From positions 1-54,695 of the IMG/VR virus record IMGVR_UViG_3300009124_000017: 54,695 nt of DNA; one strand, written 5' to 3'. Below are positions 41,997-49,224 of the stretch, in pieces; position 1 is the first letter of the stretch; the number at the start of each line of letters is the position of its first letter. Source of the DNA: a virus. Its lineage: Duplodnaviria; Caudoviricetes. Below the pieces are notes generated by a model. That model was not told where the DNA came from, did not search any database, and saw only the letters and a list, made by a program, of their open reading frames with translations. Both the position numbers and the translations under genes were made by a program.

Positions 41997-42032
41997 ATTA
42001 TAGCATAAAAAAAGAGGGGTCGCAACCCCTCT
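41997..42032 (-). terminator. Intrinsic terminator fused to a promoter (TTGCGA-N17-TATAAT, extended -10)
   Basis: AGAGGGG-TTGCGA-CCCCTCT followed by a T run, then ATGCTATAAT. Confidence 0.75.
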
Positions 42033-45384: not shown

Positions 45385-46440
45385 TCATAGAGCATTGCCT
45401 CTTGGCAACACTTCTTCAGGGAACACAAAGTTCTCATGTGGTTGATCGACTGGTGCCATCCAGGCACGTAGACCTTCATTCAATAGGATGTTCTTGGTAT
45501 AGAACGTCTCGAACTCAGGATCCTCTGCTGCTCTCACCTCCTGACTTACAAAGTCATAAGCACGAAGGTTAAGAGCAAGACCAATAATGCCAATGGAAGA
45601 GGTCCAAAGACCCATAACAGGAACAAAGAGCATGAAGAAATGAAGCCAACGCTTATTGCTAAACGCAATTCCGAAGATCTGTGACCAGAATCTGTTCGCA
45701 GTGACCATCGAATAGGTTTCTTCTTCTTGCGTCGTATCGAATGCTTTGAATGTGTTTGCTTGTTCGCCATCTTCATAAAGAGTATTTTCTACAGTAACAC
45801 CATGAATTGCTGACAGCAGAGCACCACCAAGGATACCTGCTACACCCATCATGTGGAATGGATTCAACGTCCAGTTGTGGAATCCTTGTAGGAAGAGTAG
45901 GAATCTGAAGATTGCTGCGACACCAAAACTGGGAGCAAAGAACCAGGACGATTGTCCCAGAGGATAGATAAGAAATACGCTGACAAACACAGCGATAGGA
46001 CCAGAGAAAGCAATAGCATTGTACGGACGGATACCTACTAAACGACTAATTTCAAATTGGCGAAGCATGAAACCTATGAGAGCAAAGGCTCCGTGGAGCG
46101 CCACAAAATTCCAGAGTCCCCCAAGTTGGAACCAGCGGACGAGATCTCCTTGAGACTCAGGACCCCAAAGTAGAAGAAGAGAATGACCCATAGCGTCAGC
46201 AGGAGTTGACACTGCTGCCGTGAGAAAATTAGCACCCTCAAGATAAGAAGACGCCAACCCGTGGGTATACCAGCTTGTAACAAACGTCGTGCCAGTAAGC
46301 CAGCCACCAATTGCCATATAAGCAGTGGGAAAAAGAAGTAGTCCAGACCAGCCCACAAAGACAAAGCGGTCGCGTTTAAGCCAGTCATCCAAGACATCGA
46401 ACCATCCTCTCTGCGGGGGTGAAAGTGTTGAAGCAGTCAT
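45385..46440 (-). CDS. psbD: Photosystem II D2 protein
   Basis: [16 protein letters not shown]...[10 protein letters not shown]. Confidence 0.99.
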
Positions 46441-46443
46441 TAA

Positions 46444-46734
46444 TTATACTCCATATTTGTCGAAAGTTTTTCTAATGTTCTGTGTGATCTGCATACCTCC
46501 CGTGAAAGATTCTAACATCTCACCAGCATCATCTGTGACAATGAGAACTGGAGTAGCAGTAACCTTATACTGTTTTGCAAGTGCAAGGTTTTCTTCTGGA
46601 ATAGGAATATCACTAAAGTCTTCAAGGTCAACCTTTTCAATTAGAGATGTACGTTCATCCTTAATAGACTTCATGTATTTGTCTACAAGAGCACAAGGAC
46701 CACAAGATTGCTTAGAGAATAATAGAAATTTCAT
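46444..46734 (-). CDS. Thioredoxin-like protein
   Basis: CGPC active site; V.ATPVLIV. Confidence 0.85.
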   Translation of the reverse strand: MKFLLFSKQSCGPCALVDKYMKSIKDERTSLIEKVDLEDFSDIPIPEENLALAKQYKVTATPVLIVTDDAGEMLESFTGGMQITQNIRKTFDKYGV

Positions 46735-46749
46735 TGGTATACATTCGTA

Positions 46750-46775
46750 AAGTTTTGTAAACTTTCCTTATTTAG
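46750..46775 (-). promoter_or_regulatory. Late-promoter-like CTAAATA plus HLR1-like direct repeat upstream of trx-psbD
   Basis: CCTAAATAAGGAAAG-TTTACAAA-AC-TTTACGAA. Confidence 0.45.
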
Positions 46776-46779
46776 GATA

Positions 46780-47535
46780 TCATCCTTGAAGGAATTTGTC
46801 AAGGGGAGCGTGCTTTGCAATTCTAAGTTCTGCAGTTTCACAGTAAGACTTGCTCATGTCAATGCCAATGTATTTTCTCCCAAGTTTATGTGCAACATAG
46901 GTGGTGGTGCCTGCTCCATTAAAAGGATCAAGAACCACGTCACCCTTGTAAGAAAATAGTTTCAAGCAACGCTCTACTAATTCTTCGGGAAACATTGCTG
47001 GGTGTCCATAGTCTTTCATCTTAGTCTCTGGTGCCATAGACCAGTGACCATTGACATACTTAATGAATTCATCTTTAGTAATGTCAATGTCTTCTTTGTT
47101 TCCAGGATGCTTGAGAGTATCTTTACTGAAAACTTCAATGAACTCAAATGGATACGATAGATATGGACATGATGGTGACTTCCAACTACCCCATGCTGTG
47201 AGCTTTCGGAGATTATTCTTCAACCAAATAATCTCTCCTCTCCAGATCATACCTTCACCAATCATTCTCTGGGTGATCTTGTGATGAGTAGGGAAGTATT
47301 GTTTATAGTTGGGTTGGATGTTGATAATAAGTCTGCCACCAGACTTCAACACACGCTTACACTCAACAAAGACTGCAAGAATTTTCTCAAGATATTCATC
47401 AGCATCACCATCATCATCGTGAGTATCATACTCCATACCATAGTTGTATGGAGGTGAAGTCAAAACAATATCAACAGACTCATCGTCCATTTCTTTCAGT
47501 GCAACGAGAGAATCTGAACAGATGATCTCATTCAT
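46780..47535 (-). CDS. Site-specific DNA methyltransferase (beta class, likely N4-cytosine)
   Basis: Motif IV TSPPY, HPAMFP, motif I DPFNGAGTT, in order IV then I. Confidence 0.93.
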   Translation of the reverse strand: MNEIICSDSLVALKEMDDESVDIVLTSPPYNYGMEYDTHDDDGDADEYLEKILAVFVECKRVLKSGGRLIINIQPNYKQYFPTHHKITQRMIGEGMIWRGEIIWLKNNLRKLTAWGSWKSPSCPYLSYPFEFIEVFSKDTLKHPGNKEDIDITKDEFIKYVNGHWSMAPETKMKDYGHPAMFPEELVERCLKLFSYKGDVVLDPFNGAGTTTYVAHKLGRKYIGIDMSKSYCETAELRIAKHAPLDKFLQG

Positions 47536-48050
47536 ACAATCTTAACTCCTTTAGATCCATTAGTATAGTAGATGATGCGATAAGGAATAGTTTCCTTGCC
47601 AGCATTGATAGTCTTCTTATAAGTGTTCGGTTTGATTGAGACTGGTTCGTCACCAATGAAACCATCAATGCCTTTTGCTTCTTCCTCTACGTTAGCAAGA
47701 CGATAAGACTTACCAGCAGCACACAATTTTAGCACATCGAGTTGAATTTGCAACCCTGAGTGAGTCTTATTGATGATAAGATCTTTGGTCCATGCACGAA
47801 CATCATCTTTAGTAAGTTCGTTAAGGTTCTCTTTCATAGCAAGGACACATTCCCAGATCTTATCTGCTGCAGCATCAATCTTATCATCACCATCATAGAA
47901 CTTCTCCCAGTCATTAACTTCATGACTGGCACACTGATCTCTAAACTGCTGAATCAATTCACTCATCTGACCCACATGTTTAGGTCTGGTTGCCTGCGAA
48001 AAACTGTTAGCAAGGTTGATGACGGATCCAATGTATTTGAGAAGTGCCAT
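47532..48050 (-). CDS. MjaI-family type II restriction endonuclease
   Basis: QATRPKHVGQMSELIQQF..W...LIINKT..G...YRLA..EEEAKGIDGFIGD.PVSIKP.TY; ATGA-coupled to the methyltransferase. Confidence 0.75.
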   Translation of the reverse strand: MALLKYIGSVINLANSFSQATRPKHVGQMSELIQQFRDQCASHEVNDWEKFYDGDDKIDAAADKIWECVLAMKENLNELTKDDVRAWTKDLIINKTHSGLQIQLDVLKLCAAGKSYRLANVEEEAKGIDGFIGDEPVSIKPNTYKKTINAGKETIPYRIIYYTNGSKGVKIV

Positions 48051-48071
48051 GCTTGGTTGTTAACTGAAGTT

Positions 48072-48104
48072 ATTATAGCATAAAAAAGGACCCCAGTGGG
48101 GTCC
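48072..48104 (-). terminator. psbA terminator fused to the extended -10 promoter (TGCTATAAT) of the R-M pair
   Basis: GGACCCC-ACT-GGGGTCC-TTTTTT-ATGCTATAAT. Confidence 0.75.
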
Positions 48105-48128
48105 TTGTGTCAGTTATTCAGTTGGATA

Positions 48129-49211
48129 TCAACCGATAGCAGGTGCGGTGAGAGCAACAGGAGTGCTTTCAGCAGCAGCAAGGTCGAGGGGGAAGTTGTG
48201 AGCATTGCGCTCGTGCATCACTTCCATGCCAAGACCAGCACGGTTGAGAACGTCTGCCCAGGTGTTCAGGACTTTGCCCTGACTATCCATGATGGACTGG
48301 TTGAAGTTGAAACCGTTGAGGTTGAATGCCATGGTGCTAACACCAAGAGCAGTGAACCAGATACCGACAACAGGCCATGCTGCGAGGAAGAAGTGCAGCG
48401 AACGGGAGTTGTTGAAGGAAGCGTATTGGAAGATCAGGCGACCGAAGTAACCGTGAGCAGCAACGATGTTGTAGGTCTCTTCTTCTTGACCGAACTTGTA
48501 ACCATAGTTCTGGGACTCAGACTCAGTGGTTTCACGAACCAGCGAGGAAGTAACCAGAGAACCGTGCATCGCACTGAACAGAGAACCACCGAACACGCCA
48601 GCAACGCCGAGCATGTGGAAGGGGTGCATCAGAATGTTGTGCTCTGCTTGGAAGACAAGCATATAGTTGAAGGTGCCACTAATACCCAGGGGCATAGCAT
48701 CGGAGAACGAACCTTGACCGAAAGGATAGACCAGGAAGACAGCAGATGCTGCTGCAACAGGAGCTGAATATGCAACACAGATCCAGGGGCGCATACCCAG
48801 GCGGTAAGAAAGTTCCCACTCACGTCCCATGTAAGCATAGATGCCAATCAGGAAGTGGAAGATAACAAGTTGGAAAGGACCACCGTTATAGAGCCACTCA
48901 TCGAGAGAAGCAGCTTCCCAGATGGGATAGAAGTGCAGACCGATTGCGTTGGAAGAGGGCACAACAGCACCAGAGATGATGTTGTTGCCATACATGAGGG
49001 AACCAGCAACTGGTTCACGGATGCCGTCAATGTCCACAGGGGGAGCAGCAATGAAGGCAACAATGAAACAGATAGTAGCAGCAAGGAGGCAAGGAATCAT
49101 GAGGACCCCGAACCAACCAACATAAAGACGGTTGTCAGTGCTGGTTACCCAGTTACAAAACTGTTCCCATTGAGAAGTATTCTGTTGTTGTGAAAGAGTA
49201 GATGAAGCCAT
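48129..49211 (-). CDS. psbA: Photosystem II D1 protein (intronless, E130-type, with C-terminal extension)
   Basis: [44 protein letters not shown]; start MASSTL. Confidence 0.99.
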
Positions 49212-49224
49212 TGTTTTGAACAAA

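What the first reader, a model, noticed from the sequence alone, without database searches (positions are those of the whole stretch)
46780..48104. Apparently complete type II restriction-modification pair inserted between psbA and psbD
Seen: a MjaI-like endonuclease translationally coupled (ATGA) to a TSPPY beta-class methyltransferase, with its own extended -10 promoter fused to the psbA terminator. The endonuclease gene comes first. Established: phages usually carry orphan methyltransferases, MjaI is reported to recognise CTAG, and in S-PM2 a free-standing homing endonuclease (F-CphI) lies downstream of psbA. By eye I found only about a dozen CTAG sites in the window (not an exhaustive count; CTAG is often scarce anyway). 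Inference: a phage weapon for degrading host DNA or excluding unmodified co-infecting phages, or a selfish element that drags the photosynthesis locus.
Basis: partly seen in the sequence, partly recalled or inferred. Interest (0 to 1): 0.8.

Follow-up and report, generated by a model that had tools for sequence, protein, structure and literature searches.

The report
Mobile CTAG restriction-modification cassette in cyanophage
A marine cyanobacterial virus carries an intact pair of genes for a DNA-cutting enzyme and its protective methylase, and viruses that carry this cutter have almost erased its likely target (CTAG) from their own genomes, which suggests the enzyme really cuts DNA during infection.

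Summary
On the minus strand, between psbA and a thioredoxin gene/psbD, lie an MjaI-family endonuclease gene (R, 47532-48050; Pfam RE_MjaI E 3.9e-46) and a beta-class TSPPY methyltransferase gene (M, 46780-47535; N6_N4_Mtase E 4.2e-46). They overlap by ATGA. R is preceded by the psbA terminator hairpin fused to TGCTATAAT.

The pair is not new as an annotation. GenBank already labels it in phages S-H9-2 (99% nt), S-RIM32 and S-CAM3, and labels R alone in S-SM2.

New here:
- **Mobility.** The 1.2-kb cassette moves on its own. It is 90% identical in S-CAM3 at a different locus, while the alignable syntenic core segments (HSPs of 300 nt or more) are 66-80% identical.
- **Selection.** R and M are under strong purifying selection (dN/dS 0.02-0.20).
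- **CTAG depletion.** Carriers are depleted in CTAG (observed/expected 0.07-0.19), against 0.91-1.06 in four non-carrier genomes. Across 26 carrier groups the median is 0.19, against 0.91 for 84 non-carriers.
- **S-SM2.** It keeps R but has no detectable DNA methyltransferase, and has zero CTAG in 190,789 bp.

Best reading: an active CTAG nuclease that acts on unmethylated host or rival-phage DNA. Which of those is the target is untested. "Drags the photosynthesis locus" is not supported.

The parts
48086..48106 (-). psbA intrinsic terminator hairpin (9-bp stem, 3-nt loop) followed by a T-run. The cassette begins directly after it.
   Evidence: terminator scan; sequence. A GC-rich hairpin plus T-run follows psbA in all 8 other complete cyanomyovirus genomes looked at, with or without the cassette.
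48072..48080 (-). TGCTATAAT, an extended -10 promoter-like element 21 nt upstream of the R start codon.
   Evidence: A TATAAT-like hexamer 20-35 nt before the R start recurs in many of the other genomic contexts examined, though not in the S-SM2-like clade loci or L018-20. Four different hairpins, each followed by a T-run and a TGn-prefixed -10-like element, precede R in unrelated contexts. Function as a promoter is inferred.
47532..48050 (-). R: MjaI-family type II restriction endonuclease gene, 172 aa.
   Evidence: Pfam RE_MjaI E 3.9e-46, full length. Invariant E123, E124, G127-I128-D129-G130, V137, I139, K140 and E153 across 18 homologues. pLDDT 93.4. dN/dS 0.06-0.20 in 36 pairs.
47532..47535 (-). 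ATGA overlap of the R stop codon and the M start codon.
   Evidence: The same overlap or a gap of at most about 30 nt, on the same strand, is seen in 23 of 27 IMG/VR loci.
46780..47535 (-). M: beta-class amino-methyltransferase gene (TSPPY motif IV), 251 aa. Probably makes N4-methylcytosine at CTAG.
   Evidence: PF01555 E 4.2e-46. PADLOC MTase_II 2.4e-72. Closest solved chains are 2zie (putative modification methylase, E 8e-24) and 8s9m/8s9n (DNA cytosine-N4 methyltransferase, E 1e-22). TSPPY is found in 64 of 64 cellular partner methylases and 29 of 29 viral ones. dN/dS 0.02-0.12.
46774..46802 (-). Promoter-like TTGACA-17-TGaTATCCT overlapping the M stop codon, facing the thioredoxin gene.
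   Evidence: 10 of 12 matches, TG present. The number of such sites in the region is not above shuffles, so this is only a candidate.
46444..46734 (-). Thioredoxin-like ORF (context, not part of the cassette).
   Evidence: Pfam Thioredoxin_2 E 4e-07. Absent in L010, where the order is psbA-R-M-psbD.
41997..42032 (-). Second copy of the composite stem-loop + T-run + TGCTATAAT element elsewhere in the window.

Best explanation
This is an intact, self-contained type II restriction-modification cassette. It pairs an MjaI-family PD-(D/E)XK-type nuclease that cuts CTAG with a beta-class methyltransferase that most likely makes N4-methylcytosine at CTAG. It is carried by a lytic T4-like cyanomyovirus and can move between such phages as a 1.2-kb module placed after a terminator and provided with a -10-type promoter. 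Proposed mechanism: virion DNA arrives already methylated, so transcribing the nuclease gene first carries little risk for the phage. R and M are made together. R cuts unmethylated CTAG DNA in the cell, meaning the host chromosome and any co-infecting phage that lacks the cassette. The phage's own DNA is protected twice, by methylation and by having lost most of its CTAG sites. Shown here: gene integrity, family membership, mobility, purifying selection, and CTAG depletion linked to carriage of R. Inferred: enzymatic activity, CTAG specificity, m4C chemistry, timing of expression, and which DNA is the relevant target.
For: Family: RE_MjaI E 3.9e-46 and N6_N4_Mtase E 4.2e-46. R is 46% identical to the R of a Methanocaldococcus genome (L109). 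MjaI is an active CTAG enzyme (PMC2615612, passages), and M.MjaI makes m4C at CTAG (PMC11033074, passages). Partner lineage: 65 of 80 cellular R loci have an M homologue nearby, and TSPPY is present in 64 of 64 alignable partners. Selection: all 9 R variants are intact 519-nt ORFs with dN/dS 0.06-0.20, and M has 0.02-0.12. CTAG footprint, observed/Markov-expected: window 10/131, S-H9-2 61/450, S-RIM32 32/428, S-CAM3 79/424, S-SM2 0/291; non-carriers S-T4 404/380, S-WAM2 534/537, S-8S29 384/423, Syn19 368/403. Across 26 carrier groups the median is 0.19, against 0.91 for 84 non-carriers (Mann-Whitney p 2e-11, not corrected for phylogeny). Same isolation host WH 8102: S-H9-2 0.14 against S-8S29 0.91. 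S-SM2 has R but no PF01555, PF02086 or PF00145 methylase, and CTAG is its rarest tetranucleotide. The M-less R clade stays under dN/dS 0.07-0.11. Mobility: the cassette is 89.9% identical to S-CAM3 at a non-syntenic site, against 66-80% for syntenic core HSPs of 300 nt or more (psbA and psbD about 84%). Cyanomyoviruses lack T4's denA, denB and ndd host-DNA degradation genes (PMC2984593, passage).
Against: No enzyme activity, methylation or expression timing was measured. Five of 26 carrier groups are not clearly depleted: L011 1.11, L014-16 0.90, L008/9 0.60, L013 0.56, L025 0.54. These rest on short contigs. Depletion is therefore not universal, and methylation alone may suffice. One R-less locus (L213) is also depleted, at 1 of 12 expected. 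Carrier groups are not phylogenetically independent. CTAG frequency in host genomes was not obtained, so usefulness against the host is unquantified. The fold search gave only weak nuclease matches (Z 5.1; Foldseek E > 0.6). The direction of cause is open: a CTAG-poor genome might simply tolerate acquiring the cassette.
Confidence: 0.65

Rival explanations
1. A purely selfish mobile R-M element. The nuclease is active, but the cassette persists only because it spreads between co-infecting phage genomes by cutting unmodified rivals and being copied or retained during recombinational repair. It gives no net benefit to the phage.
For: The cassette occurs in several unrelated genomic contexts. It is 90% identical between genera at different loci. 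It is flanked by terminator-promoter composites on both sides in L003, L007, L008 and L013, resembling the PeSL shuffling modules of T4-type phages (PMC2839356 abstract in the listing; PMC4122927 passages). CTAG depletion shows that carriage has a cost.
Against: The R clade is old and diverse within marine phages (one 26-row clade, SH-aLRT 100, down to 51% identity) and under strong purifying selection. In the S-SM2 lineage R was kept after M was lost, which is hard to explain unless R itself is useful. This rival overlaps with the best explanation rather than excluding it.
Confidence: 0.2
2. The CTAG depletion is imposed by host CTAG-specific restriction systems. The methylase is the useful part (anti-restriction), and the nuclease is a passenger with little or no activity.
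For: Phage orphan methylases commonly serve this role; the S-H9-2 paper reads its R-M genes this way (PMC10194205, passage). The same genomes also avoid CCGG, GGCC and RGCY, for which they carry no nuclease.
Against: S-H9-2 and S-8S29 were both isolated on WH 8102 yet have CTAG o/e of 0.14 and 0.91. The strongest depletion is in the lineage that has R and no methylase. R is under dN/dS 0.06-0.20 with every invariant residue kept. No cyanobacterium appears among the best 80 of 548 cellular relatives. The phage Rs form their own clade.
Confidence: 0.1
3. A homing-endonuclease-like element tied to the psbA locus, analogous to F-CphI of S-PM2.
For: Position directly downstream of psbA in the window, S-RIM32, L010 and the divergent L026-28 lineage. 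F-CphI is adjacent to psbA in S-PM2 (PMC6083498, passage). The weak best structural match is to the homing endonuclease I-Ssp6803I (Z 5.1, rmsd 3.8, 77 residues aligned).
Against: The same cassette sits between regA and hsp20 in S-CAM3 and in other contexts. It has a cognate methylase. The genome-wide CTAG purge indicates a 4-bp target rather than a long homing site. None of 80 loci anchored on the closest psbA genes carries R.
Confidence: 0.05

Closest known systems
MjaI / M.MjaI of Methanocaldococcus jannaschii (and the isoschizomer system MthZI)
   Same: Same Pfam family for R (PF09568; the family search rings in M. jannaschii among the 14 control genomes). R is 46% identical to a Methanocaldococcus homologue. 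The partner is a TSPPY beta-class methylase. MjaI cuts CTAG, and M.MjaI makes m4C at CTAG.
   Different: Carried by a lytic virus, not a cell. Gene order is R then M on one strand with ATGA overlap, whereas the Methanocaldococcus pair is convergent and most cellular pairs are M-upstream or convergent. The phage Rs form a separate clade on a long branch.
The same cassette as annotated in Synechococcus phages S-H9-2, S-RIM32, S-CAM3 and (R only) S-SM2
   Same: 99.1%, 92.6% and about 90% nt identity. Identical position in S-H9-2 and S-RIM32. Product names 'type II restriction enzyme/endonuclease' and 'DNA methylase'.
   Different: Those records only name the genes. The S-H9-2 paper discusses them generically as possible resistance to host restriction. 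The CTAG purge, the mobility and the methylase-less lineage are not described in any paper my searches found.
RsaI-like R-M pair of cyanophages Syn19 and ACG-2014j (GenBank annotation)
   Same: Another complete type II pair in T4-like cyanophages, also R first and overlapping M. In Syn19 it lies upstream of hsp20, as the CTAG cassette does in S-CAM3.
   Different: Unrelated nuclease family. The methylase is only about 29% identical. Syn19 shows only moderate depletion of GTAC (o/e 0.48); GTAC as the RsaI site is my recollection.
Eco29kI-type R-M operons (R gene before and overlapping M)
   Same: Same unusual gene order with overlapping genes (PMC3113576; abstract seen in the search listing only).
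   Different: A plasmid or cellular system that must solve the problem of establishing itself in unmethylated DNA. A phage whose packaged DNA is already methylated does not face that problem (inference).
T4 host-DNA nucleases (denA, denB) with modified-cytosine self-protection; chlorella-virus R-M systems
   Same: A virus-encoded nuclease that spares viral DNA because the viral DNA is chemically different. Cyanomyoviruses lack denA, denB and ndd (PMC2984593). The chlorella-virus parallel is recalled, not checked.
   Different: Here self-protection is by site-specific methylation plus loss of the sites themselves. In S-SM2 it is by loss of the sites alone.
PeSL promoter-terminator cassettes of T4-type phages
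   Same: A stem-loop terminator joined to a sigma-70-like promoter, flanking variable genes and proposed to mediate modular shuffling. Composites of this kind precede R in four contexts and follow M in four loci.
   Different: No -35 box is evident in the window copy. Only two copies were found in the window. A term search of PMC4122927 for 'cyanophage' and 'S-PM2' found neither.

Membership tests
RE_MjaI (PF09568) restriction endonucleases | Full-length match to the family profile above the curated cut-off | tested here: met
   157.3 bits against a cut-off of 22.7; profile positions 3-164 of 164.
RE_MjaI (PF09568) restriction endonucleases | Conserved acidic and lysine residues of a PD-(D/E)XK-type active site | tested here: met
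   E123, E124, D129, K140 and E153 are invariant in 18 sequences down to 41% identity. PF09568 is listed in the PD-(D/E)XK superfamily survey (PMC3424549, table passage). Assigning these residues to catalysis is inference.
PD-(D/E)XK nuclease fold | Structural similarity of the model to solved PD-(D/E)XK nucleases | tested here: inconclusive
   Model pLDDT 93.4. Best VIA match is I-Ssp6803I (Z 5.1, rmsd 3.8, 77 residues aligned, model 92-172). Foldseek top rows are R.SwaI, Hjc and splicing endonucleases, but with E 0.66 or worse.
Type II (IIP) restriction-modification system | Separate nuclease and methyltransferase genes side by side | tested here: met
   PADLOC REase_II and MTase_II.
Type II (IIP) restriction-modification system | The methylase belongs to the lineage that partners this nuclease family elsewhere | tested here: met
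   65 of 80 cellular R loci have an M homologue at 25-42% identity (L032 70%) within 1.4 kb. TSPPY is present in 64 of 64.
Type II (IIP) restriction-modification system | Nuclease cleaves a defined short palindrome (CTAG) | not testable with these tools
   Indirect support only: CTAG is depleted 5- to 14-fold in complete carrier genomes and absent in S-SM2.
Type II (IIP) restriction-modification system | Methylase modifies the same site and blocks cleavage | not testable with these tools
   Indirect: some carriers keep near-normal CTAG density (L011, L014-16), which needs protection if R is active.
Beta-class N4/N6 DNA methyltransferases (PF01555) | Motif IV (S/D)PP(Y/F) lies N-terminal to the AdoMet motif FxGxG | tested here: met
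   TSPPY at residues 26-30 and FNGAGTT near residue 207. PF01555 positions 1-220 of 221. The link between S in motif IV and N4-cytosine specificity is recalled; the nearest named solved relatives are N4C methylases.
PeSL-type mobile regulatory cassette | Stem-loop terminator joined to an early-type promoter, on both sides of the variable gene block, repeated in the genome | tested here: inconclusive
   An upstream composite is present. Downstream of M in the window there is only a promoter-like site without a hairpin. Both flanks are present in L003, L007, L008 and L013. Two copies are found in the window.
Free-standing homing endonuclease (F-CphI-like) | Long specific target in the cassette-free allele of the neighbouring gene; no cognate methylase | tested here: not met
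   A cognate methylase is present. The cassette occurs at unrelated loci. The genome-wide 4-bp purge argues against a long target.

The most novel reading that the evidence does not exclude
T4-like cyanophages use a CTAG-cutting restriction enzyme offensively, against the host chromosome and above all against rival phages sharing the cell. Living with this weapon has reshaped their genomes: carriers purge CTAG. One lineage (S-SM2 and five metagenomic relatives) finished the purge, discarded the methylase, and now carries a solitary restriction enzyme whose only self-protection is that the genome has no target left. That would be restriction without modification, in a virus.
Probability: 0.5. 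Interest if true: 0.8.

Novelty: new member of a known kind. Interest (0 to 1): 0.62.

Why it matters
Complete restriction-modification pairs in lytic phages are usually passed over as annotation curiosities. Here the phage genomes themselves record that the nuclease is active. Its probable target is nearly erased from carriers, and fully erased where the methylase is gone.

This gives a concrete, testable candidate for two open matters. The first is how some cyanomyoviruses, which lack T4's denA, denB and ndd genes, might break down host DNA. The second is how marine phages compete inside co-infected cells.

It also offers a simple sequence signature for predicting active phage-borne nucleases in metagenomes: a nuclease gene together with loss of its site. 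Cultured material exists for direct tests: S-H9-2 and S-8S29, both isolated on Synechococcus WH 8102, with 61 and 384 CTAG sites, and S-SM2.

Tried and rejected
Fold assignment. Foldseek against PDB gave no match at E <= 0.001. The wide VIA search gave at best Z 5.1. A profile search of PDB sequences gave only chance-level hits. I therefore do not claim the fold from structure.

Weak Pfam hits. The R hits to Diphtheria_C (E 0.014, below cut-off), DUF6794 and Phage_spike_P1 are treated as chance.

Expression. Contigs from RNA libraries cover the whole R-M stretch in X15 (depth about 7-24) and parts of it in X16 and X17, against 10^3-10^5 over psbA. These are contigs, DNA carry-over is possible, and depth cannot rank genes. 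I draw no conclusion on transcription. X18 showed no cover over R-M, which is likewise no evidence.

Internal promoter for M inside R. One promoter-like site lies at 47753-47726, but the number of such sites in the region (5) equals the shuffle mean of 5.3. Rejected as evidence.

S-SM2 neighbour genes. The 379-aa and 193-aa ORFs beside R have no Pfam match, so no hidden methylase was found there.

Host CTAG frequency and host-encoded MjaI homologues. I could not obtain a marine Synechococcus genome. The absence of cyanobacteria among the best 80 of 548 relatives is not proof of absence.

A longer recognition site. Residual CTAG sites in carriers occur in all ten flank classes. They show some bias (GCTAGC over-represented, CCTAGA, CCTAGG and TCTAGA under-represented), but no flank class is spared, so I keep CTAG as the core site.

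RsaI-like parallel. Syn19's own R-M does not come with strong GTAC loss, so the 'nuclease gene predicts site loss' rule is not general.

Literature. Searches found no paper that links cyanophage R genes to CTAG depletion or describes a methylase-less phage restriction enzyme. Subscription papers (for example the original S-SM2 and S-CAM3 genome papers) and all supplementary files were not visible to me and may bear on this.

The careful tree search did not finish in 288 s. The quick tree is what I report.
Full report
**What is there.** The window (54,695 bp, which is also the whole record held) is a piece of a T4-like cyanomyovirus. On the minus strand the order is:
- psbA (48129-49223)
- a 9-bp-stem hairpin at 48106-48086 with a T-run
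- TGCTATAAT at 48080-48072
- a 172-aa ORF, R (47532-48050)
- a 251-aa ORF, M (46780-47535), overlapping R by ATGA
- a thioredoxin-like ORF (46444-46734)
- psbD (45385-46440)

R matches Pfam RE_MjaI over the full profile (E 3.9e-46). M matches N6_N4_Mtase (E 4.2e-46). PADLOC calls them REase_II and MTase_II. M has TSPPY near the N-terminus and the AdoMet motif near the C-terminus, which is beta-class order. Its nearest solved relatives are 2zie (a putative modification methylase) and two cytosine-N4 methyltransferases.

**Already annotated.** The same pair, at the same place, is annotated in Synechococcus phage S-H9-2 (99.1% nt) and cyanophage S-RIM32 (92.6%). It lies at another place in three S-CAM3 isolates (about 90%). 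An R homologue alone (62% aa) is annotated in S-SM2. The S-H9-2 paper mentions the genes only generically and reads them as possible resistance to host restriction (PMC10194205, passages). PHROGs holds R as family 14722, 'unknown function'.

**Family and likely specificity.**
- MjaI (MJ0984) is an active CTAG enzyme (PMC2615612, passages). M.MjaI makes m4C at CTAG (PMC11033074, passages).
- The family search rings in M. jannaschii among the 14 control genomes. The window R is 46% identical to the R of a Methanocaldococcus genome.
- At least 548 species genomes encode a relative.
- Of the best 80 loci, 65 have a homologue of the window's M nearby, mostly upstream on the same strand or convergent. 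All 64 alignable partners, and all 29 viral ones, carry TSPPY.
- Eighteen R homologues down to 41% identity keep E123, E124, GIDG (127-130), V137, I139, K140 and E153. That pattern is compatible with the PD-(D/E)XK superfamily, in which PF09568 is listed (PMC3424549, table passage).
- The AlphaFold model is confident (pLDDT 93.4), but the fold searches were weak, so the fold is not shown by structure.

**A phage clade.** The protein search found 2,362 relatives at E <= 0.001, many in marine metagenomes. In a quick maximum-likelihood tree of 107 distinct R sequences, the window, S-RIM32, S-CAM3, S-SM2 and the marine viral contigs form one group of 26 rows. That group is split from all cellular rows with SH-aLRT 100. 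The careful search did not finish, and the root is arbitrary. No cyanobacterium is among the best 80 cellular loci.

**Gene arrangement.**
- In 23 of 27 IMG/VR loci found with R, an M homologue follows on the same strand, overlapping or within about 30 nt.
- One locus ends inside R.
- Three loci (a separate, cell-like lineage) have a distant M on the other strand.

**Mobility.**
- Against S-CAM3, the window's syntenic HSPs of 300 nt or more are 66-80% identical. psbA is 84.6% and psbD 84.2% identical.
- The cassette is 89.9% identical over 1,232 nt (window 46820-48051) and lies about 30 kb away from S-CAM3's psbA-psbD, which are adjacent with a 70-nt spacer.
- There the cassette sits between regA and hsp20.
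- Homology begins at the R start codon and ends 40 nt before the M stop. The photosynthesis genes are therefore not carried along.
- R is directly downstream of psbA also in L010 (no thioredoxin) and in the divergent L026-28 lineage (R 51%, M 74%). Other contexts occur too.
- None of 80 loci anchored on the closest psbA genes has R.
- A hairpin plus T-run follows psbA in all eight other complete genomes checked, so the hairpin belongs to psbA.
- In four unrelated contexts, four different hairpins are each followed by a T-run and a TGn-prefixed -10-like element before R.
- In L003, L007, L008 and L013 a similar composite follows M. The window holds a second copy at 42032-41997.
- This resembles the PeSL promoter-terminator modules proposed to shuffle genes in T4-type phages (PMC2839356, abstract in the listing; PMC4122927, passages). 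I rate membership as inconclusive.
- Three earlier first-stage notes of this scan describe the same kind of pair between palindrome/promoter elements in another genome.

**Selection.** Nine R variants are all intact 519-nt ORFs. Pairwise dN/dS is 0.06-0.20 for R (36 pairs) and 0.02-0.12 for M, where dS could be estimated.

**The CTAG footprint.** In complete genomes, CTAG observed against second-order Markov expectation is as follows:

| Genome | R / M status | Observed | Expected |
|---|---|---|---|
| window | R + M | 10 | 131 |
| S-H9-2 | R + M | 61 | 450 |
| S-RIM32 | R + M | 32 | 428 |
| S-CAM3 | R + M | 79 | 424 |
| S-SM2 | R only | 0 | 291 |
| S-T4 | none | 404 | 380 |
| S-WAM2 | none | 534 | 537 |
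| S-8S29 | none | 384 | 423 |
| Syn19 | none (RsaI-like pair instead) | 368 | 403 |

- I merged near-identical contigs into 26 carrier groups. These combine the 3 complete genomes S-RIM32, S-CAM3 and S-SM2 with 23 groups of IMG/VR loci. The window and S-H9-2 are represented by S-RIM32.
- The carrier groups have a median o/e of 0.19 (range 0-1.11), and 21 of 26 are below 0.43.
- The 84 non-carriers (80 psbA-anchored loci and 4 genomes) have a median of 0.91 (range 0.09-1.33). Mann-Whitney p is 2e-11, not corrected for relatedness.
- Against my reading: L011 (1.11), L014-16 (0.90), L008/9 (0.60), L013 (0.56) and L025 (0.54) are carriers without clear depletion, on short contigs. One R-less locus (L213) is depleted.
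- S-H9-2 and S-8S29 were both isolated on WH 8102 yet differ seven-fold. This argues against a host cause.
- In S-H9-2, 20 of 61 sites sit in two 5-kb bins that lie in poorly conserved regions. They look like recent imports.

**The methylase-less lineage.**
- S-SM2 has no homologue of M, and no PF01555, PF02086 or PF00145 match in six frames. The three R+M genomes each have one PF01555 and one PF02086 match.
- CTAG is S-SM2's rarest tetranucleotide: 0 observed against 686 expected from composition. The next rarest is 56 of 448.
- Five metagenomic contigs whose R is 89-95% identical to S-SM2's also lack M and hold 0-2 CTAG each.
- Four contigs at 78-80% identity have M adjacent.
- In the tree the M-less group is sister to that R+M group and nested among R+M lineages, so M was lost.
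- R in the M-less group keeps all invariant residues and shows dN/dS 0.07-0.11.

**How it most likely works.**
- Shown: an intact, conserved, mobile R-M pair whose carriage goes with loss of CTAG.
- Inferred: R cuts CTAG, and M methylates it (probably m4C).
- Inferred: because packaged DNA is already methylated, the R-first order carries little risk in a phage.
- Inferred: R attacks unmethylated DNA in the cell. Non-carrier cyanomyoviruses offer about 370-530 sites each, so rivals are exposed. The host chromosome may be exposed as well.
- Cyanomyoviruses lack T4's denA, denB and ndd (PMC2984593, passage).
- Residual self-cutting would explain why carriers lose sites. Complete loss would make M dispensable.
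- I could not decide between host and rival-phage targets, and a purely selfish reading remains possible.

**Not established.**
- Activity, methylation and timing of expression were not measured.
- RNA-library contigs do cover the cassette, but they cannot show transcription.
- Host CTAG content is unknown.
- Supplementary files of papers were not open to me.

**Novelty.** As an annotated gene pair this is known, and it is a regular member of a known enzyme family. The CTAG purge tied to R carriage, the cassette's independent movement, and the methylase-less, CTAG-free lineage were not found in any paper reached by my searches. The library lacks most subscription journals.

Noticed in passing
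window, whole; also complete genomes of S-H9-2, S-RIM32, S-CAM3, S-WAM2, S-8S29, Syn19: CCGG is absent from the window (0 against 94 or 31 expected) and occurs 0-1 times in six of eight complete cyanomyovirus genomes. GGCC, AGCT and GGCT/AGCC (together RGCY) are also 3- to 10-fold low. None of these phages was seen to carry a matching nuclease.
   Followed up: partly
window 41997-42032 (-): A second stem-loop + T-run + TGCTATAAT composite, the same design as the one in front of R.
   Followed up: partly
L004 / whole S-SM2 record (GU071095.1): S-SM2 has a solitary MjaI-family nuclease gene, no detectable DNA methyltransferase of three Pfam families, and not one CTAG in 190,789 bp.
   Followed up: yes
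L026:5890-6000, L027, L028: In this divergent lineage, a hairpin with a T-run lies between the TATAAT box and the R start codon. It could be an attenuator in the leader.
   Followed up: no
L018-L020, about 110 nt upstream of R: The sequence directly upstream of R looks like a tRNA gene. It was not checked with ARAGORN.
   Followed up: no
S-H9-2 record, 26.6-30.9 kb and 44.3-46.0 kb: Twenty of the 61 remaining CTAG sites fall in two 5-kb bins (25-30 kb and 45-50 kb), inside regions only about half conserved with S-RIM32. These are probably recently imported DNA not yet purged.
   Followed up: partly
complete carrier genomes (S-H9-2, S-RIM32, S-CAM3): Surviving CTAG sites are biased by flank. 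GCTAGC is 4-fold over-represented among survivors, while CCTAGA, CCTAGG and TCTAGA are under-represented (chi-square p 5e-9). This may reflect flank preference of R or M.
   Followed up: partly
L115 (Syn19) and ACG-2014j: Another complete R-first pair annotated as an RsaI-like endonuclease plus methylase, upstream of hsp20 in Syn19. S-WAM2 has very low GTAC (43 against 576 expected), yet tblastn found no such nuclease in it.
   Followed up: partly
psbA-psbD spacer in related phages (L112, L113, L114, L010, S-CAM3): The spacer cargo varies: nothing (S-CAM3 70 nt, S-WAM2), a 47-aa ORF (S-T4), ferredoxin (S-8S29), R-M alone (L010), or R-M plus thioredoxin (window). This marks it as a hot spot for gene insertion.
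   Followed up: partly
window 46404 / 48121: One contig in RNA library X15 joins these two places, skipping the 1,716 nt that hold thioredoxin, M and R. Only 29 nt lie on the shorter side, so it is probably a relative with psbA next to psbD.
   Followed up: no
S-8S29 complete genome: GATC is depleted (194 against 719 expected, o/e 0.27), unlike in the other eight genomes (0.85-0.99).
   Followed up: no
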